The translations under genes and the position numbers were made by a program. A model generated the notes under the pieces. The model did not search any database, was not told the DNA's origin, and worked only from the letters and a program-made list of their open reading frames with translations. Positions 28,812 to 63,850 of a stretch of DNA of 64,000 bases are shown piece by piece. The stretch spans positions 7,241-71,240 of the forward strand of contig CAMYND010000009.1 of NCBI GenBank assembly GCA_947259645.1, given 5' to 3'. Each line of letters opens with the position of its first letter. Position 1 is the first letter of the stretch. This stretch comes from Thermodesulfovibrionia bacterium. Its GTDB lineage: Bacteria > Nitrospirota > Thermodesulfovibrionia > UBA6902.

Positions 28812-28876
28812 AGCCGGTCTCAGTATCAAGAATATGCCCGGCTGATCAAGACGTGAAACGGCAAGGAGGATTTAGT

Positions 28877-41341: not shown

Positions 41342-41609
41342 TAAAATTATATTAGATGATCCTGCGCATTACATGCAGTAGCCAAAAAAGCGATTACATA
41401 TTCTGTAAACAGATTTCCTGACTCAGTATAGCTCAATGTCACATATCAAAGCTCAAATGCCAAATGAATGTCAAAATCTTAAGTTTTGATCAGACAAAGA
41501 CTAATAATAACGTGTAACATATGTGCCTGGATCGTACCGGGATGTGACATCTCTAATTCGTGAACAAGCTGGGGGCCACACAACAAATTATGTTGAAGGA
41601 GATAACATT

Positions 41610-45469: not shown

Positions 45470-46173
45470 TGAAAAAGAAAAAAACAAAGACAAAGCAAAA
45501 ATCAATAGAAAAGCAGAAGCCAGTAAACAAACGAAATATAGTTATCATTTCAGCGATCTGCCTGGCACTTATTTTTGTGCTTGGTAGCTATATCTACAAA
45601 TCCCAGCAAGCCACAAATCTAAGCTTTATGGCTAGAGAAAACGCTTCAACGTTTGTTAGAGAATATTCACAGACGCTCGGCAGTGATGACGCAAAAGTTT
45701 ATATCGTAGAATTTTTCGACCCGGCATGTGAAACCTGTAGAGACTTTTATCCTTTTGTTAAAAAACTCATGGCTGCCAACCCGGGGAAGATTAAACTCGT
45801 TATGAGATATGCCCCTTTTCATGATGGCTCAGATTATGTTGTAAAGATGCTTGAAGCTGCAAGAAAACAGGGAAGGTATTGGGAAACTTTGGAGGTTATG
45901 TATAAGTATCAACCTCACTGGGCAAGTCATCATAAGCCACAGCCTCAAGTATTATGGCAAGTTCTTCCAGAGGCAGGTCTGAATTTAGAACAAATTAAAA
46001 GTGATATGAATAGTCAAGAAATAGCTCAACTGATTAAACAAGACCTTACAGATACTAAAACTCTCAATGTCAGGAAAACGCCTGAGTTTTTCGTAAACGG
46101 GAAACCGCTTCCAAGCTTTGGTTACAACCAATTAAAAGAATTAGTAGAAGCTGAAATTCGGGCAAATTATTAA
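45469..46173 (+). CDS. DsbA-family thiol:disulfide oxidoreductase (BdbD-like), membrane-anchored
   Basis: ATG overlaps the dsbB stop (TAATG). Lys-rich N-terminus plus a TM anchor. Thioredoxin-fold CETC active site (FFDPACETCRDF). Confidence 0.7.
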   Translation: MKKKKTKTKQKSIEKQKPVNKRNIVIISAICLALIFVLGSYIYKSQQATNLSFMARENASTFVREYSQTLGSDDAKVYIVEFFDPACETCRDFYPFVKKLMAANPGKIKLVMRYAPFHDGSDYVVKMLEAARKQGRYWETLEVMYKYQPHWASHHKPQPQVLWQVLPEAGLNLEQIKSDMNSQEIAQLIKQDLTDTKTLNVRKTPEFFVNGKPLPSFGYNQLKELVEAEIRANY

Positions 46174-46361
46174 ATTTAAATTATCAGTAGCAAAAACACA
46201 TAACCAGGCAGTGCTGTGAAATCGAACCAGCGGTATCTTTTTGAGATGTGATTGTTTTATATATTCAAACTGTTTTTTAGCATGTTAATATTCACAAGGG
46301 TTCGATTCACAGACTTCATCGTTCGATCTTAATGAAGACAAAATCAACAAAGGAGACCACC

Positions 46362-46901
46362 ATGAAATTGAAAACAGATGAAGGAGGATGGAACCCGTAT
46401 TTCGCCGGAGCCCTCTTAGGTTTACTGGCGATTATTTCAGTGTTTGCCACAACCAAACTCATGGGCAAAACCAACTACCTAGGTGCATCTACTACCTTCG
46501 TTCGCGCCGCTGGTATTTTAGAGAAAACGGTGGCTGCTGCTCACGTGGGATCAAATGAGTATTTCACTAAAACGAAGGTCGTTGTTGATTGGCAGTTCAT
46601 GCTGGTTATCGGAATTGTTCTCGGCTCCTTTATATCATCTATTTTGGACAAGAGCTTCCAATTGGAGAGTGTCCCTCCTACATGGAAAAGACGATTTGGC
46701 CCCTCGATTAATAAACGAGCAGTGGGCGCCATTGCGGGAGGGATTATCGCTATGATCGGCGCTCGATTGGCTGATGGTTGTCCAAGTGGGCATGGCCTAA
46801 GCGGAATGATGCAATTGTCGGCAAGTTCTTTTGTTGCTTTGGTTATGTTTTTTGCCGTAGGTGCTCTGGTCGCTCGTATAGTTTATGGGAGGATATCATG
46901 A
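46362..46901 (+). CDS. YeeE/YedE family (sulfur/selenium transport, DUF395) half-transporter, part 1
   Basis: RBS AAAGGAGA before ATG 46362. TM segments. Conserved GCPSG motif (ADGCPSGHGLSG). Confidence 0.6.
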   Translation: MKLKTDEGGWNPYFAGALLGLLAIISVFATTKLMGKTNYLGASTTFVRAAGILEKTVAAAHVGSNEYFTKTKVVVDWQFMLVIGIVLGSFISSILDKSFQLESVPPTWKRRFGPSINKRAVGAIAGGIIAMIGARLADGCPSGHGLSGMMQLSASSFVALVMFFAVGALVARIVYGRIS

Positions 46902-47428
46902 ATACAGATCAATGGCTGGGACTTGTAACAGGCGTATTGTTTGGGTTTTTATTACAAAAAGGTCGTGTCCTCCGTTTTGAAAAACAAATCGGGGCACTGT
47001 TGCTAAAGGACATGACGATAGTCAAATTCATGCTGTCAACAATTTTGGTAGGTATGGTCGGAATACTCCTGCTTTCGAGTTTTGAGATTATTACCTTGAG
47101 TCACAAGCCAATGAATCTTGGCGCTGTATTAATAGGAGGAGCTTTCTTCGGTGCAGGATGGGCAATCATGGGTTTTTGCCCAGGCACATCTCTAGGCGCT
47201 TTGGGCGAAGGACGGTGGCATGCCTTGTTTGCCATAATTGGCATGGTGGCAGGGGCAGCACTTTATGCGGAATTGTATCCCTTTTTTAAAACGACAGTAC
47301 TTGCCTGGAAAGACTTCGGTAAGATCGGATTACAGGAAGCTCTGGGTGTCCCATTGTGGGTCATTGTTCCTTGCTTCTGGGCAGGAACAATTTCCTTGTT
47401 TTTATGGATAGAGAGAAAAGGACTCTAA
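46898..47428 (+). CDS. YeeE/YedE family half-transporter, part 2
   Basis: ATGA overlap with part 1. Conserved GFCPGTS motif. Confidence 0.6.
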   Translation: MNTDQWLGLVTGVLFGFLLQKGRVLRFEKQIGALLLKDMTIVKFMLSTILVGMVGILLLSSFEIITLSHKPMNLGAVLIGGAFFGAGWAIMGFCPGTSLGALGEGRWHALFAIIGMVAGAALYAELYPFFKTTVLAWKDFGKIGLQEALGVPLWVIVPCFWAGTISLFLWIERKGL

Positions 47429-47698
47429 TTTTGGAAATATGATCGAACAAGGGCATGCACCGGACGGCTTTTAGCCGCCGGTGATGCCACCCGTTATTTC
47501 AAATGATAATTATCAATTCATCATTCACAACAGTTTATTGACAAGTAAGATAACTGTTTAAATATTATTTTCAAAAAACTGATGATTCACAAATGATATC
47601 CTGACCTTTCGTCCATCCTGTTTAGACTTCTCCGTATTCAAATTCTGCGATAAGATATTTATGCATACCCCTAAGACTGACATATGAGGAGGAGTATC

Positions 47699-48538
47699 AT
47701 GAATATTAAGGAAGCAATAAGCACAATCAGTGACCATCAAAGTGCAAATCTAAAACACCGATCAATATACAGCTACAACTATATATTGAATCGCTTCGAG
47801 TCTCAATTCGGAAATCGTTCAGTAGAATCCATTGGCTCAGATGAGATAGGTCAGTTTTTGGAGAACCTAACAAGTGGTCTCTCCAAGGCTACACGCAGGT
47901 TGAGATTCTCACAGCTGAAGACATTCTTTAACTTTACCATTGATCATTTTGACCTCAACATTAAAAATCCATGTTCTTCATCAAAGATCTCAAGGTCATT
48001 CAAAGCCCCGGTACAGGTGTCGAGAAAGATTCTTGAGAAGGAAACCGTAGATGAGATGATATATAACACAGGCAATGTCCGAGACCGATTGCTCTTGGAA
48101 TTACAAGCACGACGTGGTTTAAGAATTGGTGAATTGTTAAAACTGAGGGTTTCCGATGTGTCAGAAAGGAAACTCACTATTATTGAGCCGAAGTCTCGCA
48201 AGGATTCAGAAGTTGCTTTTATGCCTGAACAGATCGCAAACAGGTTGCACGACTACATTAAAGAGAAACAGCTTTCTCCTGATGAATCGATATTCCCCAT
48301 TTGTTATTCAACAGCCAGGTCAATAATAATTCATCTTGCAAAAAGACTAAATATCAAAATGACCCCTCATGATCTTAGGAGACACTCTGCGACATATGCC
48401 AGTCGAAATGGTGTTCCTTTGGAAATTGTGTCTAAAGTCATTCTCAGGCACCGGGACCTTAAAACAACACAAATCTATCTGGGGAGGGTAAGCGACCCGG
48501 AAGCAATACGCTGGATGGATATATTGCATGGCAAATAG
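47699..48538 (+). mobile_element. tyrosine-type site-specific recombinase/integrase (phage-integrase family) CDS
   Basis: RBS GAGGAGG before ATG 47699. C-terminal HDLRRHSATYASRNGVPLEIVSKVILRHRDLKTTQIYL carries the R...HxxR...Y catalytic residues. Confidence 0.8.
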
Positions 48539-52475: not shown

Positions 52476-54932
52476 TTAAGTCCCCTCTACCTTCACCGTA
52501 TTAATAGGATGCTCTCCATTTGAAGACAGGCGTGTGAGCATGTTTATTCTGGCATGGGGAAAGTGAGTTGGTACGAAGACCGTTCCTTCTGGCACATCGT
52601 CGGAGAGGGCAGCCTTGAGAAATACTGAGCCCTGTCGCGATGAGACCTTAACGTGGCTGTTGTCCGCGATGTCATATTTTTTCGCGTCTTCTTCATTGAT
52701 CTCCAAAAGAGCTTCCGACACAACAAGGTCAAGTGATTTTGAACTGGTAGACATGCTCCCGGAGTGCTGGAGAATATCTCTGATCACGAGTTTAAAGGGG
52801 TATTCTTTGTCTGCTTCTTCTCCCGGCCTGAATTCGACAGGATGAAAAGTTCTCTGAACAGAGACAGGATCCGCAGGACTGCCTGCATCCCCGATTTCTT
52901 CCTTAACAGCAGCGAGATCTCTTATCCCGACATCTTTGCCCATGGAGAGGGCAAGATTTTTCAGGATCATCCAGTCAGGCATGGACTGGCCGGTCGCGTC
53001 AGCAAGTTTATATACTGTCTGGTGAGTGCCTTCAGCGTTAATGAAGGTGCCGTCCTTTTCTGCCCAGCTTGAAGCCGGAAGCACAACATTAGCAAGTTTT
53101 GCTGTCTCGGTCATGAAAATATCCTGTACAACGAGAAAATCCAGGGATTTTAATTTAGCCATCACTTTGGAGCTGTCCGGAAAAGTCGTCACAGGATCCT
53201 CCCCCATAATATAGAGGGCTTTTACGGAGTTGTCCTCATAGAGCATCTTTACAATATCTTTGTCAGATGGTTGCATGGGTCTGACGCCCATATTATAAAG
53301 ACCATAGGTATTTGAGTATTCAGCAGGGACCTGGAGTGAATCAGGCTCGTCGCCGAGAAGATTAATGAGGTTTGCAGCAGCAAGTACTGTATCCAGTCCT
53401 TTTGTGTTTTCTGAAGTACTGACTGAAAGGGATATCATTCTGCTCTTTGCATTGCCAATGGACTCTGCTGCGGCTATAATTTCCTCTTCACTGATCCCTG
53501 TTATTTTTGAGACGTTTTCAGGTGTGTAGTTCTTCAGAGTTGACTGAAGTGACGAGAACTCAGGAATGGCTGATGCAGCGCTCTTATCGTATAAGCCTTT
53601 ATCCAGTATTACCTTTGTTAATCCATTAACAAGCGCAAGGCTTGTTCCGTCCTTGATTTCAAGCCAATCAGTGCTGTGCCGGGTGAGTTTTGTTTCCCGG
53701 GAATCAGCTACTATAAGCTTGCTGCCTGCTCTCATTGCCTCGAGGATGTTAATTCCATATACCGGGTGGGTTACGCTTATATCTGATTCAAGAATCAGAA
53801 TGACCTCTTTCCCTGCGGGAGCGTTAAGGCTTATGGGGTGATTCTTCTGGCCGAATGCTTTTTCCCATACTTTTTGCACTCCGCCATATCCAAAGGCCGC
53901 GGATGAGTCAAGGTTGTTTGTGCCGACCACGTTCTTCATGAATTTCTGAAGCACATAATTGTCTTCATTCGTGCAGCGGGGAGAACCGATCGCGCCTATT
54001 GACGAGGCACTGGAATTTTTTGAGATCTTCTCAAGGTTTTTTGCAACGTAGGAGAGGGCATCTTCCCATGATACGCTTTTAAACTCATCGCCTTCCTTAA
54101 TGAGCGGTGTCTTGAGGCGCTTTTCACTATAGATATAATCAATGCCGAATCTGCCGCGTCCGCAGAGGTTTCCGTCATTTACTCCTGTTCCCTGTTTTCC
54201 TCTGGACCTGAGAATTTTTCCCTCCCTCATGCCGAGATGGAGCGTGCAGCCAACGCCGCAGAAGGGACAGATGGTGCTTTTCTCCTCAAGAAACCATGAG
54301 CGTGAGGTAAATTTGTAGGGTTTGCTCAAGATCGCTCCGGTTGGACAAATATCAAGGCATTGCCCGCAGTAGTCACACTCGAGTATTTCGCCAAAAGCAG
54401 GCTGAACAACCGTTGGGAACCCCCTGCCGATCAGTCCCAGGGCACCTCTTCCCTGATGGTCTCTGCAGATTCGTACGCACTTTCCGCAAAGGATGCAGCG
54501 CCGTGACGTAAGTTCAATTAACGGGCCCCGGATGTCTGATTTCGTCTCTTTTCTGGACCGGATAAACCGTGTGTCAGGTTTGCCGTATTCATAGGCGAGG
54601 TCCTGGAGGTCACATTCCCCAGCCTTGTCACATTCAGGACAGTCAAGGGGATGATGGACCAGGAGGAGTTCTATTACTGTCTGGCGCTGTTTCCTTAATT
54701 TTGGTGTGTCTGTCTGAATGACCATTCCGTCAGCAGCAGGGGAAGAGCATGCTGCAAGAAGACGGGCCTGACCCTCTACTTCAACAATGCAGAGCCTGCA
54801 TCCCCCGTAAGGCCTGAGCCTCTTGTCGTAGCACAAATTCGGGATATAAATATCATTTTGCAAAGCAGCTTCCAGAATGGTGCAACCCTGTTCTGCCTGG
54901 ATTTTCTTGTTGTTTATCGTGAGATTCATCAT
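52476..54932 (-). CDS. molybdopterin-oxidoreductase-fold subunit, FdhA/NuoG-like (N-terminal 2Fe-2S, His-ligated 4Fe-4S, 2x 4Fe-4S and MopB cluster); catalytic Sec/Cys apparently absent
   Basis: CYDKRLRPYGGCRLC (2Fe-2S). HHPLDCPECDKAGECD. CILCGKCVRIC and CDYCGQCLDICP. CPFCGVGC (MopB FS0). C-terminal molybdopterin-dinucleotide-binding-like domain. Where FdhF has GTNNVDCCARV-U-HGPS, this protein has GTNNLDSSAAFGYGGV. Confidence 0.6.
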   Translation of the reverse strand: MMNLTINNKKIQAEQGCTILEAALQNDIYIPNLCYDKRLRPYGGCRLCIVEVEGQARLLAACSSPAADGMVIQTDTPKLRKQRQTVIELLLVHHPLDCPECDKAGECDLQDLAYEYGKPDTRFIRSRKETKSDIRGPLIELTSRRCILCGKCVRICRDHQGRGALGLIGRGFPTVVQPAFGEILECDYCGQCLDICPTGAILSKPYKFTSRSWFLEEKSTICPFCGVGCTLHLGMREGKILRSRGKQGTGVNDGNLCGRGRFGIDYIYSEKRLKTPLIKEGDEFKSVSWEDALSYVAKNLEKISKNSSASSIGAIGSPRCTNEDNYVLQKFMKNVVGTNNLDSSAAFGYGGVQKVWEKAFGQKNHPISLNAPAGKEVILILESDISVTHPVYGINILEAMRAGSKLIVADSRETKLTRHSTDWLEIKDGTSLALVNGLTKVILDKGLYDKSAASAIPEFSSLQSTLKNYTPENVSKITGISEEEIIAAAESIGNAKSRMISLSVSTSENTKGLDTVLAAANLINLLGDEPDSLQVPAEYSNTYGLYNMGVRPMQPSDKDIVKMLYEDNSVKALYIMGEDPVTTFPDSSKVMAKLKSLDFLVVQDIFMTETAKLANVVLPASSWAEKDGTFINAEGTHQTVYKLADATGQSMPDWMILKNLALSMGKDVGIRDLAAVKEEIGDAGSPADPVSVQRTFHPVEFRPGEEADKEYPFKLVIRDILQHSGSMSTSSKSLDLVVSEALLEINEEDAKKYDIADNSHVKVSSRQGSVFLKAALSDDVPEGTVFVPTHFPHARINMLTRLSSNGEHPINTVKVEGT

Positions 54933-56782
54933 TATTTGTCACCTCCCTCTTTAACTGCCGAGACAGGTTTTTCTTTCCGGATGGCCGGCTTTACCTCAAT
55001 TGAGGCGAATTTGCAGGTGTCATAGCATGACCTGCACTGTATGCACAGTTCCTGAATGATCCTGTGGGCCTTTTTCTTTTCTCCGACGATGGCTTCCTGC
55101 GGACATGCCCGCAGGCAGGCACCGCATCCCTTGCACAGTTCTTCGGAAATATGAAATGAGCAGAGGTCGCTGCATATTCCTGCTTCACACCAATGATCTT
55201 TAATGTGTGCTTCATATTCATGTTTGAAATATCGTATCGTGGAAAGGACGGGATTCGGGGCTGTCTGGCCGAGTCCGCAAAGAGATGTACTGATAATGTC
55301 CCTGCTCAGGTCTTCAAGCTTTTCAATATCGCCTTCCTGTCCTCTGCCCTCTGTTATGTCGGTGAGCATATCGAGCATTACTCTTGTTCCGACGCGGCAG
55401 GGGGTGCATTTCCCGCATGATTCATCGGCGGTAAACTCAAGAAAAAACTTTGCCGTGCTCACCATGCAAGTGTCTTCGTCCATTACTACCATTCCTCCTG
55501 AACCCATGATAGCACCGGTCTTGACAATGTCTTCGTAGGTTACGGGGATGTCGATATGGTCCTCGGGGATACAGCCTCCTGAGGGGCCGCCCATTTGCAC
55601 GGACTTGAACTTTTTCTTTTTGTTTGTCATCCCGCCACCGATATCATAGATAATCGTTTTCAGAGGGGTTCCCATGGGGACTTCGACGAGCCCGACGTTT
55701 TTTATATCCCCTGTAAGGGCAAATACCTTTGTGCCGGTACTCTTTTCAGTCCCCAGTGACTTGTACCATTCAGCCCCGTTCAGGATGGTTGGGGCTATCT
55801 GTGCCAGGGTCTCAACGTTGTTCAGGACTGATGGCTTGTCCCACAGGCCCTTATGGGCAGGGAAGGGAGGACGTGGTCTTGGCATACCGCGCTTTCCTTC
55901 AATGGAACGCATCAGCGCTGTTTCTTCACCGCATACAAATGCCCCTGCACCCAGGTATATTTCAAGGTCAAAGTTAAATCCGCTTCCCAAAATGTTTTCA
56001 CCAAGAAGACCATTCTCACGACAAAGCTTAATCGCTGTTTCAAGCCTCGCTACTGCCAGCGGATACTCGGCTCTGACGTAGATTACGCCTTTGCTCGCGC
56101 CTATCGCCTTTGCGCCGATTAACATGCCTTCGATTACTGAGTGGGGATCAGATTCCATAACAGACCTGTCCATGAATGCCCCGGGGTCACCTTCGTCACC
56201 GTTGCACAGCATGAACTTCTGGTCAGCTACTGACTTTGAGGCGAACTCCCACTTTAACCCTGTCGGGAAACCTGCTCCTCCCCGTCCCCTGATTCCTGCG
56301 TCTTTAATAGTCTGTATTATATCTTCCGGGGTCATTTCCGTTAAGGCCTTACCAGCAGCCATATACCCGTCTCGTGCGATGTACTCATCCAGGCTGTCAG
56401 GATCAATGAGCCCCTTATTCCTCAGGACCCTCAATACCTGGTGCTTGAAGAACGGGATATCATTCATTAATGGAATGGCTGCCCTCTTCTCAGGGTCCTT
56501 GAACATCAGTTTTTCATAGGGCCGGCCTTTCAGGAAGTGCTCTTCAACAAGTTTCGGGACTTCCGCGACAGTCAATTTCTGATAAAAGATCTCTTCAGGG
56601 TACACCAGCATTACAGGCCCTTCAGCACAGAATCCGTTGCATCCGGTCAGCACGATCTTTACCTCGTCGGCAAGGCCCTGCTTTTCCAGCTCTTCCTGAA
56701 GGGCATCTTTAACCTTGGGGGTCCCGCTTGCAACGCATCCGGTCCCGGCACACATGAGTAAATTGGCACGATATTTTTCCAT
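54932..56782 (-). CDS. NuoF/HndC-like NAD(P)H-binding flavoprotein subunit with N-terminal thioredoxin-like 2Fe-2S domain and C-terminal 2x[4Fe-4S] ferredoxin domain
   Basis: GRGGAGFPTGLKWEF (FMN/NADH site). ESCGKCTPCRVGT (N3 cluster). CKGCGACLRACP and CIQCRSCYDTC ferredoxin motifs. N-terminal CAGTGC...C. Confidence 0.8.
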   Translation of the reverse strand: MEKYRANLLMCAGTGCVASGTPKVKDALQEELEKQGLADEVKIVLTGCNGFCAEGPVMLVYPEEIFYQKLTVAEVPKLVEEHFLKGRPYEKLMFKDPEKRAAIPLMNDIPFFKHQVLRVLRNKGLIDPDSLDEYIARDGYMAAGKALTEMTPEDIIQTIKDAGIRGRGGAGFPTGLKWEFASKSVADQKFMLCNGDEGDPGAFMDRSVMESDPHSVIEGMLIGAKAIGASKGVIYVRAEYPLAVARLETAIKLCRENGLLGENILGSGFNFDLEIYLGAGAFVCGEETALMRSIEGKRGMPRPRPPFPAHKGLWDKPSVLNNVETLAQIAPTILNGAEWYKSLGTEKSTGTKVFALTGDIKNVGLVEVPMGTPLKTIIYDIGGGMTNKKKKFKSVQMGGPSGGCIPEDHIDIPVTYEDIVKTGAIMGSGGMVVMDEDTCMVSTAKFFLEFTADESCGKCTPCRVGTRVMLDMLTDITEGRGQEGDIEKLEDLSRDIISTSLCGLGQTAPNPVLSTIRYFKHEYEAHIKDHWCEAGICSDLCSFHISEELCKGCGACLRACPQEAIVGEKKKAHRIIQELCIQCRSCYDTCKFASIEVKPAIRKEKPVSAVKEGGDK

Positions 56783-56913: not shown

Positions 56914-57297
56914 TTAATACGTTGTCTCACTCCCCATCACGAGGGCATATTTCTCTACAGGTGTGCCGCCGAGGACATGATCCTTAAAGATCTCCTTCAG
57001 TTTATCAACGGTAACATCGCCATATTTTACCGGTGTGTTATCAGCTATTTCCACGGTCATCATCGGTTCACGGGCACAGAGTCCGGCGCAGCCTGAGGTG
57101 GTGGTAATAACATCATTAACTTTAGATTCTGTGATTTCATCTATCAGGGCTGTCATGATATCCCGCGCTCCCGCTGCTATTCCGCAGGTTCCCATATGAA
57201 CGGTAACTTTTGCCCTGTATCCGCCTTCTCTCAGGTTGAATGTTGCCTGCTGTTTTTCTTTTATTTTCTTTAAATCAGCGATCGTTAACTTTGCCAT
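56914..57297 (-). CDS. HndB-like small thioredoxin-fold [2Fe-2S] ferredoxin
   Basis: 127 aa. HMGTCGIAAGA...SGCAGLCAREP Cys pattern matches the NuoE/HndB-type 2Fe-2S fold. Confidence 0.55.
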   Translation of the reverse strand: MAKLTIADLKKIKEKQQATFNLREGGYRAKVTVHMGTCGIAAGARDIMTALIDEITESKVNDVITTTSGCAGLCAREPMMTVEIADNTPVKYGDVTVDKLKEIFKDHVLGGTPVEKYALVMGSETTY

Positions 57298-57381: not shown

Positions 57382-58254
57382 TCATGCGTATTCTTCCAGA
57401 ACACCCTGAACCTTTTTTGGTGTCATTGCACCGTATGTTTCTTCATCCACGACAATAACAGGCGCAAGACCGCATGCCCCGAGGCACCGTACTGTTTCGA
57501 TAGAGAATTTTTTGTCTTCCGTAACCTCTCCAACATCTATTTTGAGCGTTGATTTGAATTTTTCCAGTACTTCCTCTACTCTCTTTACGTAGCACGCTGT
57601 GCCGAGACATACCCTGACATTATGGTCCCCTCTGGGTTTCATGGTGAAATAGGAATAAAATGTCACGATACTGTGAATTTCTGCCGGAGACATATTGAGC
57701 CCCTTCGCGACCCGTTTCTGCACAACAGGGGGCAAATATCCGACGATTGCCTGACAGCGCTGGAGAACAGGGATTGAACTTCCCGGCTTGTTCCTGTACT
57801 CCTTTATGACCCGGTCAATCTCCTGTCTCATGGACGGGGGAAATTCTTCCTCTTTTTTCTCTTCTTCAACAGCAGCCTTGCCCTTTATCCACTGCACTGA
57901 CCGTTCTGTTACGTCCAGAAGCACTGCCGGGGTAAAGGGTTTCGGCACATAATCGATTATTCCGGCTTCAAGGGCATCTTTAATCGTATCCTGTGACGGG
58001 TACCCCGTGATGACAACGATACCGGTGTCAGGCCTGTTCTGCCTGATCCACTTAATAAGGGTGATACCATCTACTTCAGGCATCTTAAGGTCAGTGAATA
58101 CGAGGTCATAGGGGGTCTGCTCCATCTTCAGTATCGCCTCTTTGCCTCCCAGAACTCCTTCGATATTGTACCCTTCGGACCTGAGTACCGATTCGCAGCT
58201 TCTGATAATGACGGGCTCATCGTCAACAACCAGAATTTTAATATCATCTGCCAT
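57382..58254 (-). CDS. response-regulator receiver domain fused to NuoE/HndA-like [2Fe-2S] subunit
   Basis: N-terminal CheY-like domain (ILVVDDEPVII...DLVFTDLKMPEVDG...KPF). C-terminal NuoE signature (IPVLQRCQAIVGYLPP...VCLGTACYVKRVEEV...VRCLGACGLAPV). Confidence 0.75.
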   Translation of the reverse strand: MADDIKILVVDDEPVIIRSCESVLRSEGYNIEGVLGGKEAILKMEQTPYDLVFTDLKMPEVDGITLIKWIRQNRPDTGIVVITGYPSQDTIKDALEAGIIDYVPKPFTPAVLLDVTERSVQWIKGKAAVEEEKKEEEFPPSMRQEIDRVIKEYRNKPGSSIPVLQRCQAIVGYLPPVVQKRVAKGLNMSPAEIHSIVTFYSYFTMKPRGDHNVRVCLGTACYVKRVEEVLEKFKSTLKIDVGEVTEDKKFSIETVRCLGACGLAPVIVVDEETYGAMTPKKVQGVLEEYA

Positions 58255-58426: not shown

Positions 58427-59191
58427 CTATTTTGCTAAGGGGAATACTTTTGCCAGCCAAAGAAGCCATCCTTCTGATAGATGGTCCTTAAGAAGTGCTG
58501 CCATGACGTCATTCGCCTTCGTATTGATCTCTCTGAGCTCTCCATTCATGGGAGAAAGCAGGCTTTGTGATTTGCCGCTGCTTGTATAAATATTCGCAAA
58601 AACCTGACCCGCATCAAGGGTATCCAGATCTTTAACAAACTCTACATACATTAAATCTCCTGCAAGCATCCAGTATCTCAGGTCACAGCCGACTTCCCAC
58701 AGTCCGTCGCCGGAGGGTCGTGCCCAGGTGCCTTCTTTATAAAAAATAACAGGGTTTTCCTGGTCCCGCAGGGGTGATACAAAGTCCCTGAAATCGTCAA
58801 TAAAGGCCTGCCGCAATATCCAGCCCCGGGTGTCAAAAACCTTCTGGGCGACATTAAGCATAAAGTCAGGGGTAAAGGGTTTTTCAATGTATTCCGCTGC
58901 TCCCAGTTTTGACGATTCCTTGGCATCTTCCAGAGTCGGGTAACCCGTAATTATCACTACGTCTGTTTTCGGCTTGATGACACGGGCTTCCTTAAGCACT
59001 TCTAGCCCGCTCATTCCCGGCATTTTCACATCGGATATCAGGAGGTCAAAATCTTCTTTTGAGAGTTTATTGAGGGCATCTTCTCCGTTATCTACCGTGG
59101 AAATGCTGTAACCTTCAGCTCCGAGAATTCTCTTGCAGCTTAAGGTTACAATTGGATCATCATCGACTACTAGTATTCTCCCTTTTTCCAT
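58427..59191 (-). CDS. response-regulator receiver domain fused to a GcvH-like (lipoyl/biotinyl-type hybrid barrel) domain
   Basis: N-terminal CheY-like domain (ILVVDDDPIV...DLLISDVKMPGMSG...KPF). The C-terminal about 120 aa aligns by eye with glycine-cleavage H protein (FYKEGTW...GLWEVGCD...AGDLMYVEF...YTSSGKSQSLLSPMNGELREIN...EGWLLWLA), including a Lys at the lipoyl-Lys position. Confidence 0.5.
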   Translation of the reverse strand: MEKGRILVVDDDPIVTLSCKRILGAEGYSISTVDNGEDALNKLSKEDFDLLISDVKMPGMSGLEVLKEARVIKPKTDVVIITGYPTLEDAKESSKLGAAEYIEKPFTPDFMLNVAQKVFDTRGWILRQAFIDDFRDFVSPLRDQENPVIFYKEGTWARPSGDGLWEVGCDLRYWMLAGDLMYVEFVKDLDTLDAGQVFANIYTSSGKSQSLLSPMNGELREINTKANDVMAALLKDHLSEGWLLWLAKVFPLAK

Positions 59192-59295: not shown

Positions 59296-59820
59296 TTAGC
59301 CAGCACTTATAGCGTCTTTAATAATTTTTATTACGTCCGGCGTATTAATCGGGATATTGCCCAGCTCTTTTTTTATTTCAGATGTATCTAAAACGTATGT
59401 TTTATCATCTCTTTTGTGTTCGAAGAAAAAATCAATTTCAGGATTAGATACTATCAGAACGATCAGTGTTTTTCCAACATCTCCCATGGGTTTCCTGTCT
59501 ATGTGGTCATGCTGAAAAGATACGGATATGGAGGTGCCCCCGCCTTTTTGAGAGGTCACCTGTATGTCCCCCCTGCACTCCCGTGCAGCCTGGGCGAGCA
59601 TCGGGATGCCAAGCCCCACTTTTCTCGTCGTCCTTGTAGTGTAAAAGGGATCGCAGGCATGTTCCAGCAGTTCCGCGTCCATCCCCTGTCCGTTGTCTTT
59701 AATGTCTATAGTCAGGATATTGTCTTTGACACTTTCCCTCAGCCTGATCTCAATTCTGGACGCCCCCGCTGTTATCGAGTTTTCAACAATATCAAGGATA
59801 TGTAATGATAGATCTTCCAT
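59296..59820 (-). CDS. GHKL-type ATPase domain protein (histidine-kinase-like / anti-sigma-factor-like Ser kinase), no HisKA or sensor domain
   Basis: N-box region ILDIVENSITAG. G1 DNGQGM. G2 GLGIPM. C-terminal about 70 aa of unknown function. Confidence 0.6.
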   Translation of the reverse strand: MEDLSLHILDIVENSITAGASRIEIRLRESVKDNILTIDIKDNGQGMDAELLEHACDPFYTTRTTRKVGLGIPMLAQAARECRGDIQVTSQKGGGTSISVSFQHDHIDRKPMGDVGKTLIVLIVSNPEIDFFFEHKRDDKTYVLDTSEIKKELGNIPINTPDVIKIIKDAISAG

Positions 59821-59934
59821 AATTGTGATTTATCTTGCCACAGACTTGCACAGACTTAAAGACATGATACTATCTCTATTACTGTTTAGTGCTTAACCTG
59901 CTTTTGTCTGTGTTAGTCAGTGGCTGAATAATCT

Positions 59935-60675
59935 TCACTCCCATTCCACCTTTCTTCCATCTTTGTTTTTCATTGCCATTCTTATCTCTGTAATTGACGG
60001 GGCCTGCAGGGAGAAATTTGAAATTTTTTTTGCAATGTCTGCCGGATAGTGGGCGTCAGAGGACGCTATCCAGGTATATGAGCTGTAGTCTTTGAACAGG
60101 CTCTCAGCCTTTTCCCTTGTCATATTCGGGGACATTTCAAGGGCGTCAAAGTTCATCTGATCCGGGATAAATCCCAGCTGCGACAGTATACTGAAGGCCC
60201 CCCTGTCAATATGTGAGGCTATGGCCAGACCGCCCAGATCGTGGATGGTCTCTATTATTGTTTGAGCAGGCAGATCAGTGGCGGCTATGAGCATCCGATT
60301 GTTCATGCCTAACACTTCATCCTGTTCATTGACAATTACCTGCTCCCCGAATCTGCTTACATCATTGGTCCCGGGAAGAAGGTTTTTATATACAATTTCC
60401 TGTAGATCTAAAATACGATCGTCATCAAAGATCCCCAGGATATGTGCTTCTTCTGAAGATGCTACCTCCATACCGGCAAGAACAGTAAGGTTGAACTGCG
60501 CTGCGGATTTTCTTGCTGCCTGCACATTTTCAGCAGAATTGTGGTCAGTAATAGCGATGATATCCAGACCCTTTTGTGAAGCGGTCTCAATAATTGAAGC
60601 AGGGGTCATATCCAGTTCAGCGCAGGGGGAAAGGCAGGTATGTATATGCAGGTCAGCTTTATATTGTTTCAACAT
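59935..60675 (-). CDS. PHP-domain metal-dependent phosphoesterase
   Basis: DLHIHTCLSPCA and IIAITDHNS His motifs of the PHP superfamily. Confidence 0.7.
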   Translation of the reverse strand: MLKQYKADLHIHTCLSPCAELDMTPASIIETASQKGLDIIAITDHNSAENVQAARKSAAQFNLTVLAGMEVASSEEAHILGIFDDDRILDLQEIVYKNLLPGTNDVSRFGEQVIVNEQDEVLGMNNRMLIAATDLPAQTIIETIHDLGGLAIASHIDRGAFSILSQLGFIPDQMNFDALEMSPNMTREKAESLFKDYSSYTWIASSDAHYPADIAKKISNFSLQAPSITEIRMAMKNKDGRKVEWE

Positions 60676-60708
60676 AAGAGGTTTTCAGGATTCTGTTCAG
60701 CAGCTCTT

Positions 60709-61044
60709 TTACCTGTCAAGCAGTTGATAAAGCTTTCCTGCTGCTTCAAATGCCGGCAGGGGTGTTGTCATGACAGTTACTTTTTCGGCCCGGGCCTTCT
60801 CTATGACGTCTTCCGCCGGTTTTCTGTTTCCCACAATAATTATTCCGGCCAGGCCTTTCATATCAGCTACAGCGATAATATTCAGGTGAGTCTGAAGCGT
60901 AATCCATATATTCCCTACATTGCTGTTGGCCATAACATCAGACAGGAGATCACTGACATATGCTCCCGTGACTTCATTATTCATGCTTTCTTCACAGGTT
61001 ACTATTTCCAGCGACAAGTCTTTGATCAGATCCTGAAGATTCAT
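60709..61044 (-). CDS. DRTGG-domain protein
   Basis: About 110 aa with a core resembling the DRTGG domain (IAVADMKGLAGIIIVGN...). Confidence 0.5.
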   Translation of the reverse strand: MNLQDLIKDLSLEIVTCEESMNNEVTGAYVSDLLSDVMANSNVGNIWITLQTHLNIIAVADMKGLAGIIIVGNRKPAEDVIEKARAEKVTVMTTPLPAFEAAGKLYQLLDR

Positions 61045-61085
61045 AACATGACCCCTTTTGTAGTATTTCTCAGTATGAAATATGT

Positions 61086-61523
61086 CTACGGGATATTTAA
61101 AACCATCTCCACTGTCGTGCCTTCGCCCACAACAGACTCAATATTAAATTCATCTGAGTTCTTTTTCATGTTCGGGAGCCCCATTCCTGCTCCCCAGCCC
61201 ATTTCCCGCACCCACTCGGGAGCGGTCGAGTACCCCTCCTGCATTGCCTGCTCGATATTTTCAATGCCGGGCCCCATGTCTTCAATCCTGATCCGGATGG
61301 AAGACGGGCCAATAAAGTACAGCAGTCGTGCTGCTGCCGCGTATATAATTACATTGATTTCCGCTTCAAAGGTGGCGATAGCGGCACGCCGTATGATTTC
61401 TTCAGCAACACCGAGATCAGTGAGCGTCCGTTTCAGCTCGCCAGAGGCCTCACCGGCAGTGGCAAAGTTTCCGCCTACGAGCTGAAAGCTGCCTTCTATT
61501 GTTTTGTCACTATTCAGTGGCAT
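61086..61523 (-). CDS. GHKL-type ATPase, anti-sigma-factor/RsbW-like Ser kinase
   Basis: EAEINVIIYA N-box-like. DMGPGI (G1). GAGMGL (G2). About 145 aa, like SpoIIAB/RsbW. Confidence 0.6.
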   Translation of the reverse strand: MPLNSDKTIEGSFQLVGGNFATAGEASGELKRTLTDLGVAEEIIRRAAIATFEAEINVIIYAAAARLLYFIGPSSIRIRIEDMGPGIENIEQAMQEGYSTAPEWVREMGWGAGMGLPNMKKNSDEFNIESVVGEGTTVEMVLNIP

Positions 61524-61527
61524 CTGC

Positions 61528-61878
61528 TTACTTGTCCAGACATCCCGGTAACCCCTCTTTAAACAGCCTTCCTGAGGCGGTGTACATGCAGAAGGATGTG
61601 CTTAACAGGGGGATTTTTTTCTTTTGAGCCAGGTCGATAGTTTCTTTGTCCGGCTTCTTATCCAGGACAAAAACAATGGATTTGATCCCCGCTATTTCAG
61701 CGGTACGGATAACATGAGGCTGGGTGAGGCTGGTGATAAGCAGTGAGTTGGGTGTGTGGTAATACAGGACAGCGCTCATCATATCAGCACTGCAGGCGCT
61801 GTGAATATCTATCTCTGAATTCTCAGGATTTGCGATGATAGATGCTTCAAGAATTTTAGCTATCTCTTTTAAAATCAT
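61528..61878 (-). CDS. DRTGG-domain protein (second copy)
   Basis: About 116 aa paralogous to 60709-61044 (LITSLTQPHVIRTAEIAGIKSIVFV). Its stop overlaps the downstream GHKL gene. Confidence 0.5.
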   Translation of the reverse strand: MILKEIAKILEASIIANPENSEIDIHSACSADMMSAVLYYHTPNSLLITSLTQPHVIRTAEIAGIKSIVFVLDKKPDKETIDLAQKKKIPLLSTSFCMYTASGRLFKEGLPGCLDK

Positions 61879-61901: not shown

Positions 61902-62267
61902 TTAGTCCGATGGTCCGAATACTTCCTGAACCGCTTTAAGCAGCGTGTCGGGTGTAAAAGGCTTTTCTATAAAGTTATATGCACCGACTCTCAGCGCCTG
62001 AACAGCCGTATCAACTGTGCTGTAGCCTGTTACCATAACAACTTTCGTCTCCGGCCAGTTCTCCTTTATTTTGCTGAGCACCTCCATGCCGTCCATGTCC
62101 GGCATTTTCAGGTCAAGCAGAACCAGTGCGAAGGTTTCCTTTTCAAGGCACGCTATCCCTTCTTTGCCGCTGGCCGTGAGCGTCACATCATATCCTTCCG
62201 GGGTCAGGGTCCTGTCGCAGCTTGTCCTGACTATGGCTTCATCATCTACTACGAGAATTTTTTTCAT
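61902..62267 (-). CDS. single-domain response regulator (CheY-like receiver)
   Basis: ILVVDDEAIV...LVLLDLKMPDMDG...KPF. Start overlaps the upstream kinase stop (ATGA). Confidence 0.8.
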   Translation of the reverse strand: MKKILVVDDEAIVRTSCDRTLTPEGYDVTLTASGKEGIACLEKETFALVLLDLKMPDMDGMEVLSKIKENWPETKVVMVTGYSTVDTAVQALRVGAYNFIEKPFTPDTLLKAVQEVFGPSD

Positions 62268-63850
62268 GATTCTAAGGGTAGTCTAACAAAAAAGCTGGTG
62301 CCTTTACCAATGGTGCTCTTGACCTTTATATGGCCGCCCAGGTGCTTCACAATTCCATGACTTACAGAGAGACCGAGCCCTGTTCCTTTCCCGACCGGCT
62401 TGGTTGTGAAAAAGGGTTCAAAGAGCTTTGGCATGTCCTCTTCCTTTATTCCGCACCCTTCGTCTGTAAACTCTATTTCAACATAGGGCTTTTCATTTTC
62501 CAATGCCCCCCTCGTTCTAATGGTGATATTCCCCCGGCCATTCATGGCGTCAGCAGCATTAATGAACATGTTCAGAAAAATCTGCTGGAACTGAGAACCA
62601 TCGCCTACAACGACAAACTGCTTGTCCGCGAAATCCGGGTTGAATTTTATATGGTGAAACTTTGCCTGGTTCTGCACCATGAATATTGTCCTGTTCAGCA
62701 CCTCATTAATGCTTACCTTGCCTTTCTCAGAAGGTGTCGCACGGGCGAAGGTGAGAAGGTTTTTGATGATTTTTGCGCATCGTTCAGACTGTTCAATAAT
62801 AATATCGAGGTCCTGTGATTCGGTGCTTTCCGGGGGAAACCTCTTCTTTAACAGGTGAGCAAATGTGACGACTCCGGTTAAAGGGTTGTTAATTTCATGG
62901 GCCACCCCCGCGGCCATTCTTCCCAGAGATGCCAGCTTTTCAGTCTGCATGAGGTTGGCATGGGTCTTCTGGATTTCATCTGTTTTCTTTTCAATTTCTA
63001 CTTCAAGGGTCTGGGTCCATCGTTCCCGCTGGTCTCTGGCCCCTTTCAGGTCACGGATCATCGAGTTGAATGTTCGCGCCAATTTGCCGATTTCATCATC
63101 TGATCTCACCTGAACAGTGTTCTCGAGGTTCCCGCCGGAAACCTTCTCCATTCCCTGGACAAGCTCATTGACCGGTTTGGAAACAATTTTATAGAGGATG
63201 ATTCCAAGAAAGATCGATACGGCAAGAACAAACATGATAACGTACGCGGTCAGGGCGAGCCCCTGCTTTAAGAGGGCCTCATCCAGAACAGCAAGGGAGA
63301 GGTCTGCCTTCACAAAGCCGAGTATTTCCGGGCTTTCCGGATGGGCGTGACAGGCTGCCGTGGAACATTCGGGGGCGTTTAAAATCGATTCTACCATGTG
63401 CAGCGAGGTTTTACCTTTTTCGTCTCTGTGGACGAACAGTTTTCTGGTTTCTGTCAGCAATTCCCCTGATTCACTGTTGGAATGACATCCGGTGCAGGCT
63501 ATAGATGTTCTGTCAACAGAGTTCCCTGCTTTTTCTGATTTTGATGAAAATACAATGTTGCCGCGATGGTCGTAGATCTGAACGCCCTGAACACCTTCCG
63601 GCGTGCTGAGGGTGTCCAGTACGCGCTGGGTTTCTTCCCTGTCAAATATAAGCATGCTGCGGCGTGTGCTGGCTTTCGTGAAGTTTACAAAAGACCTGCC
63701 GTACTTGGTCGCAATCGACAGAACATCTTTTTCCTGCTTTTGAAGAATGGCATACCAGAAGATGAGGCTCAGTATAATCATCAGGAGGCCGATGGCGATA
63801 ATAAGCTTTGCAGCTATGGATTTATCGGGATTGCGGAGAATATTTTTCAT
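62264..63850 (-). CDS. sensor histidine kinase with a periplasmic di-heme c-type cytochrome sensor domain
   Basis: TM1. Periplasmic domain with two CxxCH motifs (CTGCH, CSTAACH). TM2, HAMP-like linker and HisKA H-box (AAGVAHEINNPL). HATPase_c G-boxes (DEGCGI, GTGLGLS). Confidence 0.75.
   Translation of the reverse strand: MKNILRNPDKSIAAKLIIAIGLLMIILSLIFWYAILQKQEKDVLSIATKYGRSFVNFTKASTRRSMLIFDREETQRVLDTLSTPEGVQGVQIYDHRGNIVFSSKSEKAGNSVDRTSIACTGCHSNSESGELLTETRKLFVHRDEKGKTSLHMVESILNAPECSTAACHAHPESPEILGFVKADLSLAVLDEALLKQGLALTAYVIMFVLAVSIFLGIILYKIVSKPVNELVQGMEKVSGGNLENTVQVRSDDEIGKLARTFNSMIRDLKGARDQRERWTQTLEVEIEKKTDEIQKTHANLMQTEKLASLGRMAAGVAHEINNPLTGVVTFAHLLKKRFPPESTESQDLDIIIEQSERCAKIIKNLLTFARATPSEKGKVSINEVLNRTIFMVQNQAKFHHIKFNPDFADKQFVVVGDGSQFQQIFLNMFINAADAMNGRGNITIRTRGALENEKPYVEIEFTDEGCGIKEEDMPKLFEPFFTTKPVGKGTGLGLSVSHGIVKHLGGHIKVKSTIGKGTSFFVRLPLES

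What the first reader, a model, noticed from the sequence alone, without database searches (positions are those of the whole stretch)
58427..59191. Receiver domain fused to a GcvH-like (lipoyl-carrier-fold) domain
The C-terminal 120 aa aligns by eye with glycine-cleavage H protein over its whole length, including a Lys at the lipoylation position (YTSSGKSQSLLSP versus VESVKAASDIYAP). A REC-GcvH fusion is not a standard response-regulator architecture. The GcvH-like module could be a lipoate or redox-swinging-arm output, or a protein-interaction domain tied to the adjacent electron-transfer complex.
Basis: inference. Interest (0 to 1): 0.55.

Follow-up and report, generated by a model that had tools for sequence, protein, structure and literature searches.

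The report
Response regulator with lipoate-less GcvH domain
This gene encodes a two-component receiver fused to a domain that folds like the glycine-cleavage H protein but has lost the lysine that carries lipoate, so it is most likely a phosphorylation-controlled docking or regulatory subunit of the NADH/iron-sulfur enzyme encoded next to it, not a lipoate swinging arm.

Summary

The lipoylation claim fails. The canonical lipoyl-lysine column holds a near-invariant glycine (G206). The window's K207 lies one residue downstream and is Lys in only 20 of 82 orthologues (Gln in 47). None of 117 REC-fused GcvH-like proteins from several phyla has Lys in the lipoyl column. No lipoate ligase, lipoyl synthase, gcvT or gcvP was found in the window.

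The gene sits directly upstream of a REC-NuoE fusion, a small 2Fe-2S protein, a HydB-type NuoF and a NuoG-like subunit in about 70 Thermodesulfovibrionia genomes, together with a predicted haem-c sensor kinase. In other phyla the same REC-GcvH-like module is fused to an HdrC-like subunit or lies beside cytochrome operons.

Best reading (inferred): a phospho-switched, lipoate-free protein-interaction subunit or regulator of flavin/Fe-S electron-transfer complexes.

The family is widespread, named only by automatic annotation, and uncharacterised. Novelty: new variant of a known kind. Interest: moderate.

The parts
58427..59191 (-). Whole ORF, 254 aa: REC plus lysine-less GcvH-like domain (REC-GcvHL)
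   Evidence: 81 full-length orthologues in Thermodesulfovibrionia genomes
58853..59176 (-). Receiver domain, residues 6-113. Phospho-acceptor D54 is the codon at 59030-59032
   Evidence: Pfam 99.4 bits. D10, D11, D54, T82 and K104 are invariant in 81-82 sequences
58757..58837 (-). Conserved linker, residues 119-145 (FDxRGWILRQAFIDEFRD), modelled as one long helix continuing REC alpha-5
   Evidence: AF2 model helix 2-26 of the C-terminal construct; mean pairwise identity 0.74
58430..58756 (-). GcvH-like domain, residues 146-254
58574..58576 (-). G206 codon: the residue in the canonical lipoyl-lysine column
   Evidence: Alignments; Gly in 80 of 82 orthologues
58571..58573 (-). It is one residue past the lipoyl position and variable
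   Evidence: K20, Q47, E3, H3, D4, P1, T1, A1, N1 among 82 sequences
57382..58254 (-). REC-NuoE fusion (receiver plus thioredoxin-like 2Fe-2S subunit), next gene downstream
   Evidence: follows REC-GcvHL in about 70 loci, directly in most and after a nfnAB-like insertion in about ten
56914..57297 (-). Small thioredoxin-like 2Fe-2S protein, 127 aa
   Evidence: weak Pfam hit; conserved synteny
54932..56782 (-). HydB/BfuB-type NuoF-like flavoprotein (N-terminal 2Fe-2S, FMN domain, C-terminal 2x[4Fe-4S])
   Evidence: 7.6e-247 to 7t2r_B; 1.7e-240 to 7q4v_B
52476..54932 (-). NuoG-like subunit with a molybdopterin-type domain that lacks the FDH Cys/His active-site pair
59296..61878 (-). Accessory genes: HATPase_c (59296-59820), PHP (59935-60675), DRTGG (60709-61044), HATPase_c_2 (61086-61523), DRTGG (61528-61878)
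   Evidence: synteny
61902..62267 (-). Stand-alone receiver, 121 aa, paralogue of the two fused receivers (43-46% identity)
62264..63850 (-). Sensor histidine kinase (HAMP-HisKA-HATPase) with CxxCH and Cx4CH motifs in its extracytoplasmic loop

Best explanation
SHOWN. The gene encodes a response regulator with a catalytically intact receiver domain. A conserved helical linker joins it to a domain that is a true homologue of glycine-cleavage H protein in sequence and in predicted fold. That domain has glycine at the lipoyl-lysine position, so it is a lipoate-free 'GcvH-like' (GcvHL) module. The gene belongs to a conserved Thermodesulfovibrionia (Nitrospirota) operon: kinase, REC, accessory genes, REC-GcvHL, REC-NuoE, 2Fe-2S protein, HydB-type NuoF, NuoG-like.

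INFERRED. The membrane kinase, which probably senses through c-type haem, phosphorylates three paralogous receivers: the stand-alone REC, REC-GcvHL and REC-NuoE. Phosphorylation of D54 is passed through the linker helix, probably in a dimer, and changes how the GcvHL barrel docks onto a partner. The most likely partner is the co-encoded NuoE/NuoF/NuoG-like flavin/Fe-S complex, one subunit of which carries its own receiver. The likely output is post-translational tuning of the assembly or activity of that electron-transfer complex, not transcription and not carriage of a cofactor.
For: Receiver:
- Pfam 99.4 bits.
- D10, D11, D54, T82 and K104 are invariant in 81-82 orthologues.

GcvH homology:
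- Pfam hit above the gathering score.
- PDB phmmer hits are H-proteins only.
- A profile of REC-fused GcvHL domains retrieves canonical GcvH at about 1e-20.

Loss of the lipoyl site:
- Lipoyl column is G206, Gly in 80 of 82 orthologues.
- K207 is variable.
- Among 117 REC-fused proteins the column holds G71, L16, M15, R12, T1; Lys occurs only in three of the four canonical GcvH controls.
- Genuine lipoate-binding GcvH-like LbpA proteins keep the Lys strictly (PMC6067878).
- The same phylum has a separate canonical GcvH with Lys (P0151).

Link to the complex:
- REC-GcvHL, REC-NuoE, 2Fe-2S, NuoF, NuoG in that order in essentially every locus long enough, about 70 species-level genomes, even where the accessory genes sit elsewhere or are absent.
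- A distant relative (P0048) has the same pairing with REC-NuoE.

Fusion evidence for physical association with Fe-S subunits:
- REC-GcvHL fused to an HdrC-like ferredoxin, next to HdrB(CCG) and giant HdrA-like genes, in three independent loci.
- Other members sit between a kinase and cytochrome/NrfD or cytochrome-b operons.

Output domain under selection:
- GcvHL mean pairwise identity 0.65; linker 0.74; 83 positions at 97% identity or more.

One kinase, three receivers:
- The three RECs are 40-46% identical and share the ITGY...KPFTP motif.
Against: - No interaction was tested. No multimer prediction was possible, and the full-length AF2 model is poor (pLDDT 65.9).
- The partner is inferred only from gene order and from fusions in distant relatives.
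- The co-encoded complex has no recognisable catalytic module (no H-cluster; the FDH Cys/His pair is replaced), so what would be regulated is itself unknown.
- Intergenic gaps of 104 and 172 nt flank the gene. Co-transcription is plausible but not shown, and the promoter and terminator scans did not differ from shuffled controls.
- One subclade keeps Lys at position 207 in 12 of 12 members, so a clade-specific modification is not formally excluded.
- No paper describing the architecture was found.
Confidence: 0.5

Rival explanations
1. One reading: the GcvH-like domain is lipoylated on K207 and serves as a lipoate or redox swinging arm feeding, or fed by, the neighbouring electron-transfer complex.
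For: GcvH fold and homology are real. K207 lies in the same beta-hairpin turn (model strands 86-92 and 97-101). One subclade keeps K207 in 12 of 12 members. A precedent exists for lipoylated GcvH-like proteins serving Hdr-like complexes (LbpA, PMC6067878).
Against: The lipoyl column is G206, not Lys. K207 is Q, E, H, D, P, T, A or N in 61 of 82 orthologues. No REC-fused GcvHL in any phylum has Lys in the lipoyl column. NCBIfam GcvH models score far below their cut-offs (34.7 vs 117; 29 vs 115.85). No BPL_LplA_LipB, LIAS, GcvT or GcvP hit in about 60 window ORFs. From my own memory, not checked here: shifting the lipoyl-Lys by one residue in the hairpin abolishes lipoylation of E2 lipoyl domains (Wallis & Perham 1994).
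Confidence: 0.04
2. The protein is mainly a phosphate sink or phosphorelay partner that modulates phospho-flux from the kinase to REC-NuoE and the stand-alone REC. In this reading the GcvH-like domain is only a dimerisation or stability module with no external partner.
For: Three paralogous receivers and one kinase in the operon. Many members in other phyla occur as tandem REC-GcvHL pairs, a pattern compatible with competing receivers.
Against: The GcvHL domain and linker are strongly conserved across a whole class. The domain is retained when fused to HdrC-like subunits. This argues for a specific output surface and not a passive tail. No Hpt or second kinase was seen in the operon.
Confidence: 0.2
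3. The GcvH-like barrel binds a small molecule non-covalently (for example a thiol, a disulfide or a lipoamide-like metabolite), so the protein integrates a metabolite signal with phosphorylation.
For: From my own knowledge: H-proteins have a surface cleft that shelters the loaded lipoamide arm. The family is associated with thiol/disulfide-type (Hdr-like, DsrE, TusA) and redox operons. A mostly conserved Cys169 lies in the WE(V/I)GCD motif.
Against: No ligand-binding signature was tested or is known. Cys169 is replaced by Y, F, L, V or I in some members. Nothing here distinguishes a ligand pocket from a protein interface.
Confidence: 0.1
4. It controls transcription indirectly, for example by binding a sigma-54 activator, an anti-sigma-type HATPase protein or RNA polymerase, and does not act on the enzyme complex.
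For: HATPase_c_2 (RsbW/SpoIIAB-like) proteins are encoded next to it here and in a distant relative. Sigma-54 response regulators lie beside REC-GcvHL in L092 and L093.
Against: No DNA-binding domain. In many genomes the HATPase/DRTGG/PHP genes are absent or displaced while REC-GcvHL stays glued to REC-NuoE. Fusion to HdrC-like subunits points to the enzyme, not the transcription machinery.
Confidence: 0.1

Closest known systems
Glycine-cleavage system H protein (GcvH; PF01597, TIGR00527)
   Different: Gly instead of the lipoyl-Lys. The hairpin is one residue longer. The C-terminal helix is missing. It is fused to a receiver. It is far below the NCBIfam GcvH cut-offs. It is not near gcvT/gcvP, and a separate canonical GcvH exists in the phylum.
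LbpA, lipoate-binding GcvH-like proteins of the sulfur-oxidising sHdr system (Cao et al. 2018, PMC6067878)
   Same: A GcvH-fold protein genetically tied to Hdr-like or flavin/Fe-S redox complexes. Distant REC-GcvHL relatives are fused to HdrC-like subunits beside HdrB, HdrA, DsrE and TusA genes.
   Different: LbpA keeps a strictly conserved lipoyl-Lys and two Cys and comes with dedicated ligases. This family has no Lys at that site, no ligase nearby, and carries a receiver domain.
Response regulators that act by protein-protein contact and not by DNA binding (CheY, CpdR, RssB and similar)
   Same: An intact receiver, no DNA-binding or enzymatic output, and a probable output through docking to a target protein. 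This is an inference drawn by analogy with my own knowledge of those systems.
   Different: The output module is a GcvH-like barrel, not described for any characterised regulator. The presumed target is a flavin/Fe-S oxidoreductase, not a motor or a protease.
N-terminal barrel-sandwich hybrid domain of RnfC and NqrA
   Different: Much weaker similarity than to GcvH. In RnfC and NqrA the barrel is covalently part of the enzyme subunit and is not phospho-regulated.
Bfu-type (HydABC-like) electron-bifurcating complexes with accessory HATPase/DRTGG/PHP genes
   Same: The neighbouring NuoF-like protein is nearly full-length identical in architecture to HydB of bifurcating hydrogenases and to NfnB. 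A NuoE-like and a NuoG-like subunit are present.
   Different: No hydrogenase H-cluster domain. The FDH-type Mo domain lacks the Cys/His pair. The NuoE-like subunit carries a receiver, and an extra REC-GcvHL gene is present.

Membership tests
Response regulator receiver (CheY-like, PF00072) | Profile match above the curated cut-off | tested here: met
   99.4 bits vs 30.2
Response regulator receiver (CheY-like, PF00072) | Acidic pocket, phospho-acceptor Asp, and conserved Thr and Lys | tested here: met
   D10, D11, D54, T82 and K104 are present and invariant in 81-82 orthologues
Response regulator receiver (CheY-like, PF00072) | Phosphotransfer from a cognate histidine kinase | not testable with these tools
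   A HAMP-HisKA-HATPase kinase is encoded in the same operon. Transfer itself needs biochemistry.
GcvH (glycine-cleavage H protein) | Pfam GCV_H match above the gathering score | tested here: met
   30.9 vs 22.2 bits, residues 150-245 on model positions 3-97 of 122
GcvH (glycine-cleavage H protein) | H-protein fold | tested here: met
GcvH (glycine-cleavage H protein) | Lipoyl-lysine at the tip of the conserved hairpin | tested here: not met
   The column is G206. K207 is one residue downstream and is Lys in only 20 of 82 orthologues.
GcvH (glycine-cleavage H protein) | Score above the NCBIfam GcvH model cut-offs (TIGR00527 equivalog, NF002270 subfamily) | tested here: not met
   NF002270 34.7 vs 117; TIGR00527 29.0 vs 115.85
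GcvH (glycine-cleavage H protein) | Genomic association with gcvT/gcvP or lipoate-attachment genes | tested here: not met
   No GcvT, GcvP, BPL_LplA_LipB or lipoyl synthase hit among about 60 ORFs of the 64-kb window. The rest of the genome was not seen.
GcvH (glycine-cleavage H protein) | Covalent lipoylation of the protein | not testable with these tools
   Needs mass spectrometry
LbpA (sHdr-associated lipoate-binding protein) | Strictly conserved lipoyl-Lys (and two conserved Cys) | tested here: not met
   Definition from PMC6067878. Lys is absent here.
LbpA (sHdr-associated lipoate-binding protein) | Encoded in or next to an hdr-like cluster with a dedicated lipoate ligase | tested here: not met
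   The window operon has no HdrB/C or ligase. Only distant REC-GcvHL relatives sit in hdr-like clusters.
Bfu/HydABC-type flavin-based bifurcating complex (genomic context only) | HydB-type NuoF with an N-terminal 2Fe-2S and a C-terminal 2x[4Fe-4S], plus NuoE-like and NuoG-like subunits | tested here: met
Bfu/HydABC-type flavin-based bifurcating complex (genomic context only) | A recognisable catalytic module (H-cluster, NiFe subunits, or FDH Mo site with Cys/Sec-His) | tested here: not met
   Where R. capsulatus FdsA has 'CARVCHSPT', the window has 'SAAFGYGG'. No hydrogenase genes in the operon.

The most novel reading that the evidence does not exclude
REC-GcvHL proteins are a widespread, unrecognised class of two-component outputs that act directly on enzymes. 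In this reading the module is a phosphorylation-gated subunit, derived from a lipoyl-carrier protein that once served Hdr-type complexes. It docks onto Bfu-, Hdr- or cytochrome-type electron-transfer complexes and switches electron bifurcation or electron routing on and off post-translationally, in response to a periplasmic haem-based redox sensor.
Probability: 0.25. Interest if true: 0.7.

Novelty: new variant of a known kind. Interest (0 to 1): 0.42.

Why it matters
How anaerobes control flavin-based electron bifurcation and Hdr-like complexes after translation is essentially unknown. This operon carries receiver domains on an enzyme subunit (REC-NuoE) and on a dedicated lipoate-free GcvH-like protein. 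Related modules are fused to HdrC-like subunits in other phyla. Together these give a concrete, testable candidate for direct two-component control of such complexes. The finding also corrects an annotation trap: automatic pipelines label these proteins 'glycine cleavage system H lipoate-binding protein', yet the whole REC-fused clade lacks the lipoyl lysine.

Tried and rejected
- Lipoylation reading: rejected on position and non-conservation of the Lys.
- Literature: searches for GcvH-like with response regulator, GCV_H with receiver, REC-NuoE with bifurcating, DRTGG with hydrogenase, response-regulator censuses, and lysine-less GcvH found no description of this architecture. Galperin 2006 (PMC1482966) is not held.
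- A profile built only from diverse REC-fused GcvHL domains (A3) pulled back mostly canonical GcvH. It confirmed homology but did not map the fused family. The full-length profile A4 did map it.
- The full-length AF2 model was too poor (pLDDT 65.9, pTM 0.52) to read inter-domain contacts.
- The AFDB50 fold library was unavailable.
- The neighbouring 818-aa protein was first considered a formate dehydrogenase. That reading was rejected as canonical FDH because the active-site Cys/His pair is replaced.
- Promoter and terminator scans were not above the shuffled expectation and do not settle operon structure.
- Rfam and tRNA scans of the window found nothing.
- No multimer prediction tool was available, so docking to NuoE, NuoF or NuoG could not be tested.

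Full report
**1. The observation**

The ORF at 58427..59191 (minus strand) runs from ATG to stop and is 254 aa long. An AGGAGGGGG ribosome-binding site lies just upstream of the ATG (sequence).

- Pfam-A finds a receiver domain at residues 6-113 (1.7e-28). It also finds GCV_H at residues 150-245 (2.9e-07; 30.9 bits against a gathering score of 22.2; model positions 3-97 of 122).
- The C-terminal part alone hits only H-proteins in PDB sequences (best 5.8e-06).
- It hits the NCBIfam GcvH models far below their cut-offs (34.7 vs 117; 29.0 vs 115.85).
- An AlphaFold2 model of the C-terminal 143 residues (pLDDT 78.6, pTM 0.74) matches H-proteins first in Foldseek (top 22 hits, probability 1.0, TM 0.56-0.65).

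The REC plus GcvH-fold architecture is therefore real and well beyond chance.

**2. The lysine**

- Against E. coli GcvH, the lipoyl-Lys pairs with G206 and the window's K207 lies one position downstream. Against the M. tuberculosis protein, the Lys pairs with S205.
- Counting from the conserved S-P-x-x-G motif after the hairpin, GcvH has Lys eight residues before the Pro. Here that position is G206.
- In profile alignments that include dozens of canonical GcvH sequences, the lipoyl column is again G206.
- I collected full-length orthologues from 81 species-level genomes. With the window protein this gives 82 sequences. G206 is Gly in 80 of the 82.
- Position 207 is K in 20, Q in 47, E in 3, H in 3, D in 4, and P, T, A and N in 1 each.
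- Within the window's own clade the counts are Q 34, K 6, E 3, H 3, D 1, P 1, T 1. One other subclade keeps K in 12 of 12 members.
- Genuine lipoate-binding GcvH-like proteins (LbpA) keep the Lys strictly (PMC6067878).
- A canonical Nitrospirota GcvH with the ES-T-K-A motif exists separately (P0151).
- No lipoate ligase, lipoyl synthase, GcvT or GcvP domain was found in about 60 ORFs of the window. The radical-SAM protein at 13684-15108 is of the B12-binding type, not LipA.
- From my own memory, not checked here: moving the lipoyl-Lys by one residue in the hairpin abolishes lipoylation of E2 lipoyl domains (Wallis & Perham 1994).

**3. The receiver is functional-looking**

- D10, D11, the phospho-acceptor D54, T82 and K104 are invariant in 81-82 orthologues.
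- The linker at residues 119-145 (FDxRGWILRQAFIDEFRD) is modelled as one long helix continuing alpha-5. It is as conserved as the domains: mean pairwise identity is 0.78 for REC, 0.74 for the linker and 0.65 for GcvHL, and 83 positions are at 97% identity or more.
- This is the pattern of a signalling protein whose output domain is under selection, not a decaying fusion.

**4. Genomic context**

Downstream on the same strand:
- REC-NuoE fusion (57382-58254).
- 127-aa thioredoxin-like 2Fe-2S protein (56914-57297).
- NuoF-like protein with an N-terminal 2Fe-2S and a C-terminal 2x[4Fe-4S] (54932-56782).
- NuoG-like protein with a molybdopterin-type domain (52476-54932).

Upstream on the same strand:
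- HATPase_c, PHP, DRTGG, HATPase_c_2 and DRTGG genes.
- A stand-alone REC.
- A HAMP-HisKA-HATPase kinase.

The NuoF-like protein matches HydB of the NiFe-HydABCSL complex (7t2r_B, 7.6e-247), HydB of bifurcating [FeFe] hydrogenases (7q4v_B, 8a6t_B, 7p5h_B) and NfnB (9n5u_B) over its full length. It is therefore a 'Bfu'-type subunit; that family name is from my own knowledge.

The NuoG-like protein is closest to R. capsulatus FdsA (6tg9_A, 2.4e-112). Where FdsA has CARVCHSPT, the window has SAAFGYGG. From memory, that FdsA stretch holds the Mo-ligand Cys and the catalytic His. The window protein is therefore not a canonical formate dehydrogenase, and the catalytic role of the complex is open.

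**5. Comparative genomics**

- A scan of one genome per species found 148 genomes with a relative. The 80 loci kept are Nitrospirota or Thermodesulfovibrionia MAGs, apart from a few labelled only as unclassified bacteria and two labelled Deferribacteres.
- The window protein itself is on record on a 139.8-kb NCBI contig.
- tblastn with the twelve operon proteins shows the order REC-GcvHL, REC-NuoE, 2Fe-2S, NuoF, NuoG in essentially every locus long enough. This holds where the HATPase/DRTGG/PHP block lies downstream (L068, L069, L073, L080, L082) or is missing (L003, L053, L074, L077, L078, L083).
- In about ten genomes a 2.5-kb insertion between REC-GcvHL and REC-NuoE encodes NfnA-like and NfnB/GltD-like proteins.
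- The three receivers of the operon are 40-46% identical paralogues.

**6. The wider family**

- A profile of the GcvHL domain searched against 1.84 billion representatives found 97 hits at E of 0.001 or lower. Many are proteins of about 250 aa carrying a receiver.
- A full-length REC-GcvHL profile found 2701 clusters (90% identity) at E of 1e-25 or lower among 8000 scored. The top 120 are almost all PF00072+PF01597.
- Named sources are Nitrospirota, a Deltaproteobacteria MAG with three paralogues, candidate division WOR-3 and Planctomycetota.
- NCBI calls them only 'response regulator'. JGI calls them 'FixJ family two-component response regulator/glycine cleavage system H lipoate-binding protein'.
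- Among 117 such proteins the lipoyl column holds G 71, L 16, M 15, R 12 and T 1. Lys occurs only in three of the four canonical GcvH sequences added as controls.
- The non-Nitrospirota branch has its own signature, [LMR][HRK]IHKLWSP[VI][TS]GK.

Contexts of distant members:
- L086: REC-GcvHL, HATPase_c_2, a 115-aa gene, REC-NuoE.
- L084, L092, L093: REC-GcvHL, then REC-GcvHL fused to an HdrC-like 4Fe-4S domain, then HdrB (CCG), then giant HdrA-like proteins. L093 also has DsrE, TusA, FlpD and a NiFe hydrogenase nearby.
- L090: kinase, two REC-GcvHL genes, cytochrome c, Fer4_11, NrfD.
- L091: kinase and REC-GcvHL beside a multihaem cytochrome and cytochrome b operon.

The module thus recurs next to anaerobic electron-transfer complexes, and in some cases is fused into them.

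**7. Mechanism**

Shown:
- An intact receiver.
- A true but lipoate-site-less GcvH homologue.
- Strict synteny with a NuoE/F/G-like complex.
- Fusion of the same module to Fe-S subunits elsewhere.

Inferred:
- The operon's kinase phosphorylates the three paralogous receivers. Its extracytoplasmic loop carries CxxCH and Cx4CH motifs, conserved in 31 of 31 orthologues, so it probably senses through haem c.
- Phospho-D54 acts through the conserved linker helix to change how the GcvHL barrel docks onto the co-encoded complex.
- The result is tuning of assembly or activity after translation.

I put about 0.5 on this overall statement and more than 0.9 on the 'not lipoylated, not a GcvH in function' part.

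Rivals:
- Lipoylated swinging arm: 0.04.
- Phosphate sink with a passive tail: 0.2.
- Small-molecule-binding barrel: 0.1.
- Indirect transcriptional control through HATPase-type or sigma-54 partners: 0.1.

**8. Comparison with known systems**

- The protein passes the membership tests for REC.
- It passes only the fold and homology tests for GcvH. It fails the lipoyl-Lys, equivalog-score and genomic-association tests, so it should not be filed as GcvH or as a lipoate-binding protein.
- Functionally it most resembles response regulators that act by protein contact (CheY, CpdR, RssB; by analogy, from my own knowledge).
- No paper describing the architecture was found.

**9. Verdict**

- Novelty: a new variant of a known kind, namely a response regulator with an uncharacterised, GcvH-derived output domain. 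It is widespread in anaerobes and already detectable by Pfam, but mislabelled and unstudied.
- Interest is moderate (0.42). It would rise if direct phospho-control of a bifurcating or Hdr-type complex were shown.

Noticed in passing
window 62264-63850 (-): The operon's histidine kinase has two transmembrane helices around a loop of about 160 aa carrying CxxCH (C119) and Cx4CH (C162) motifs. Both motifs are conserved in 31 of 31 full-length orthologues, so this is a predicted c-type haem (redox) sensor kinase. Pfam recognises no sensor domain there.
   Followed up: partly
window 57382-58254 (-): A receiver domain is fused directly to a NuoE/HydC-type 2Fe-2S subunit (REC-NuoE). The fusion is conserved across about 70 genomes and in a distant relative (L086). 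It implies phospho-control built into an enzyme subunit. I found no description of it in the literature searches.
   Followed up: partly
window 52476-54932 (-): The NuoG-like, FdsA-like 818-aa protein has a full molybdopterin-type domain. It carries 'SAAFGYGG' where R. capsulatus FdsA has the active-site 'CARVCHSPT' (Cys to Gly, His to Tyr). It is therefore not a canonical formate dehydrogenase, and the catalytic function of this HydB-type complex is unknown.
   Followed up: partly
L023 10492-12775 (also L035, L048-L052, L054, L058, L062): In about ten related genomes, a 2.5-kb insertion between the REC-GcvHL and REC-NuoE genes encodes NfnA-like (277 aa) and NfnB/GltD-like (482 aa) proteins. 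A second NuoF-like gene follows the NuoG-like gene in four of them (L023, L048, L049, L058). This hints that the complex is linked to NADPH/ferredoxin transhydrogenation.
   Followed up: partly
L084 3347-4684; L092 9833-11185; L093 9001-10329: In other phyla (WOR-3, a Deltaproteobacteria MAG) the REC-GcvH-like module is fused to an HdrC-like 4Fe-4S domain. It sits beside HdrB (CCG) and giant HdrA-like genes of 1200-1500 aa, and a second stand-alone REC-GcvH-like gene is always just upstream. L093 also has DsrE, TusA, FlpD and a NiFe hydrogenase nearby.
   Followed up: partly
L057, L059-L061, L063-L065, L070, L072, L076, L079 (REC-GcvHL orthologues): One subclade keeps Lys at position 207 in 12 of 12 members, within a GSGKI[IV]D motif, while the rest of the family mostly has Gln. 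Whether this reflects a clade-specific modification or only ancestry was not resolved.
   Followed up: no
window 41523-43010 (+): A 495-aa protein combines rhodanese domains with a multihaem cytochrome (Cytochrome_C554/C7-type) region. This is an unusual sulfur-transferase/cytochrome fusion. A second c554-like protein lies at 10045-11034 (-).
   Followed up: no
window 44990-47428 (+): A cluster of DsbB-like, thioredoxin/DsbA-like and two YeeE/YedE-type 'sulphur transport' ORFs. The latter two overlap (46332-46901 and 46778-47428), which could mean a split or frameshifted gene. A phage-type integrase follows at 47684-48538.
   Followed up: no
window 59296-61878 (-): The block of small HATPase_c, PHP and DRTGG genes lies upstream of REC-GcvHL here. 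It lies downstream of the NuoG-like gene in other genomes (L002, L068, L069, L073, L080, L082) and is absent in some. This looks like a mobile accessory regulatory cassette of unknown function.
   Followed up: partly
window 11355-13376 (+), 28808-29716 (+), 295-789 (+): Three sizeable ORFs (673, 302 and 164 aa) have no Pfam match at E of 1e-4 or lower.
   Followed up: no
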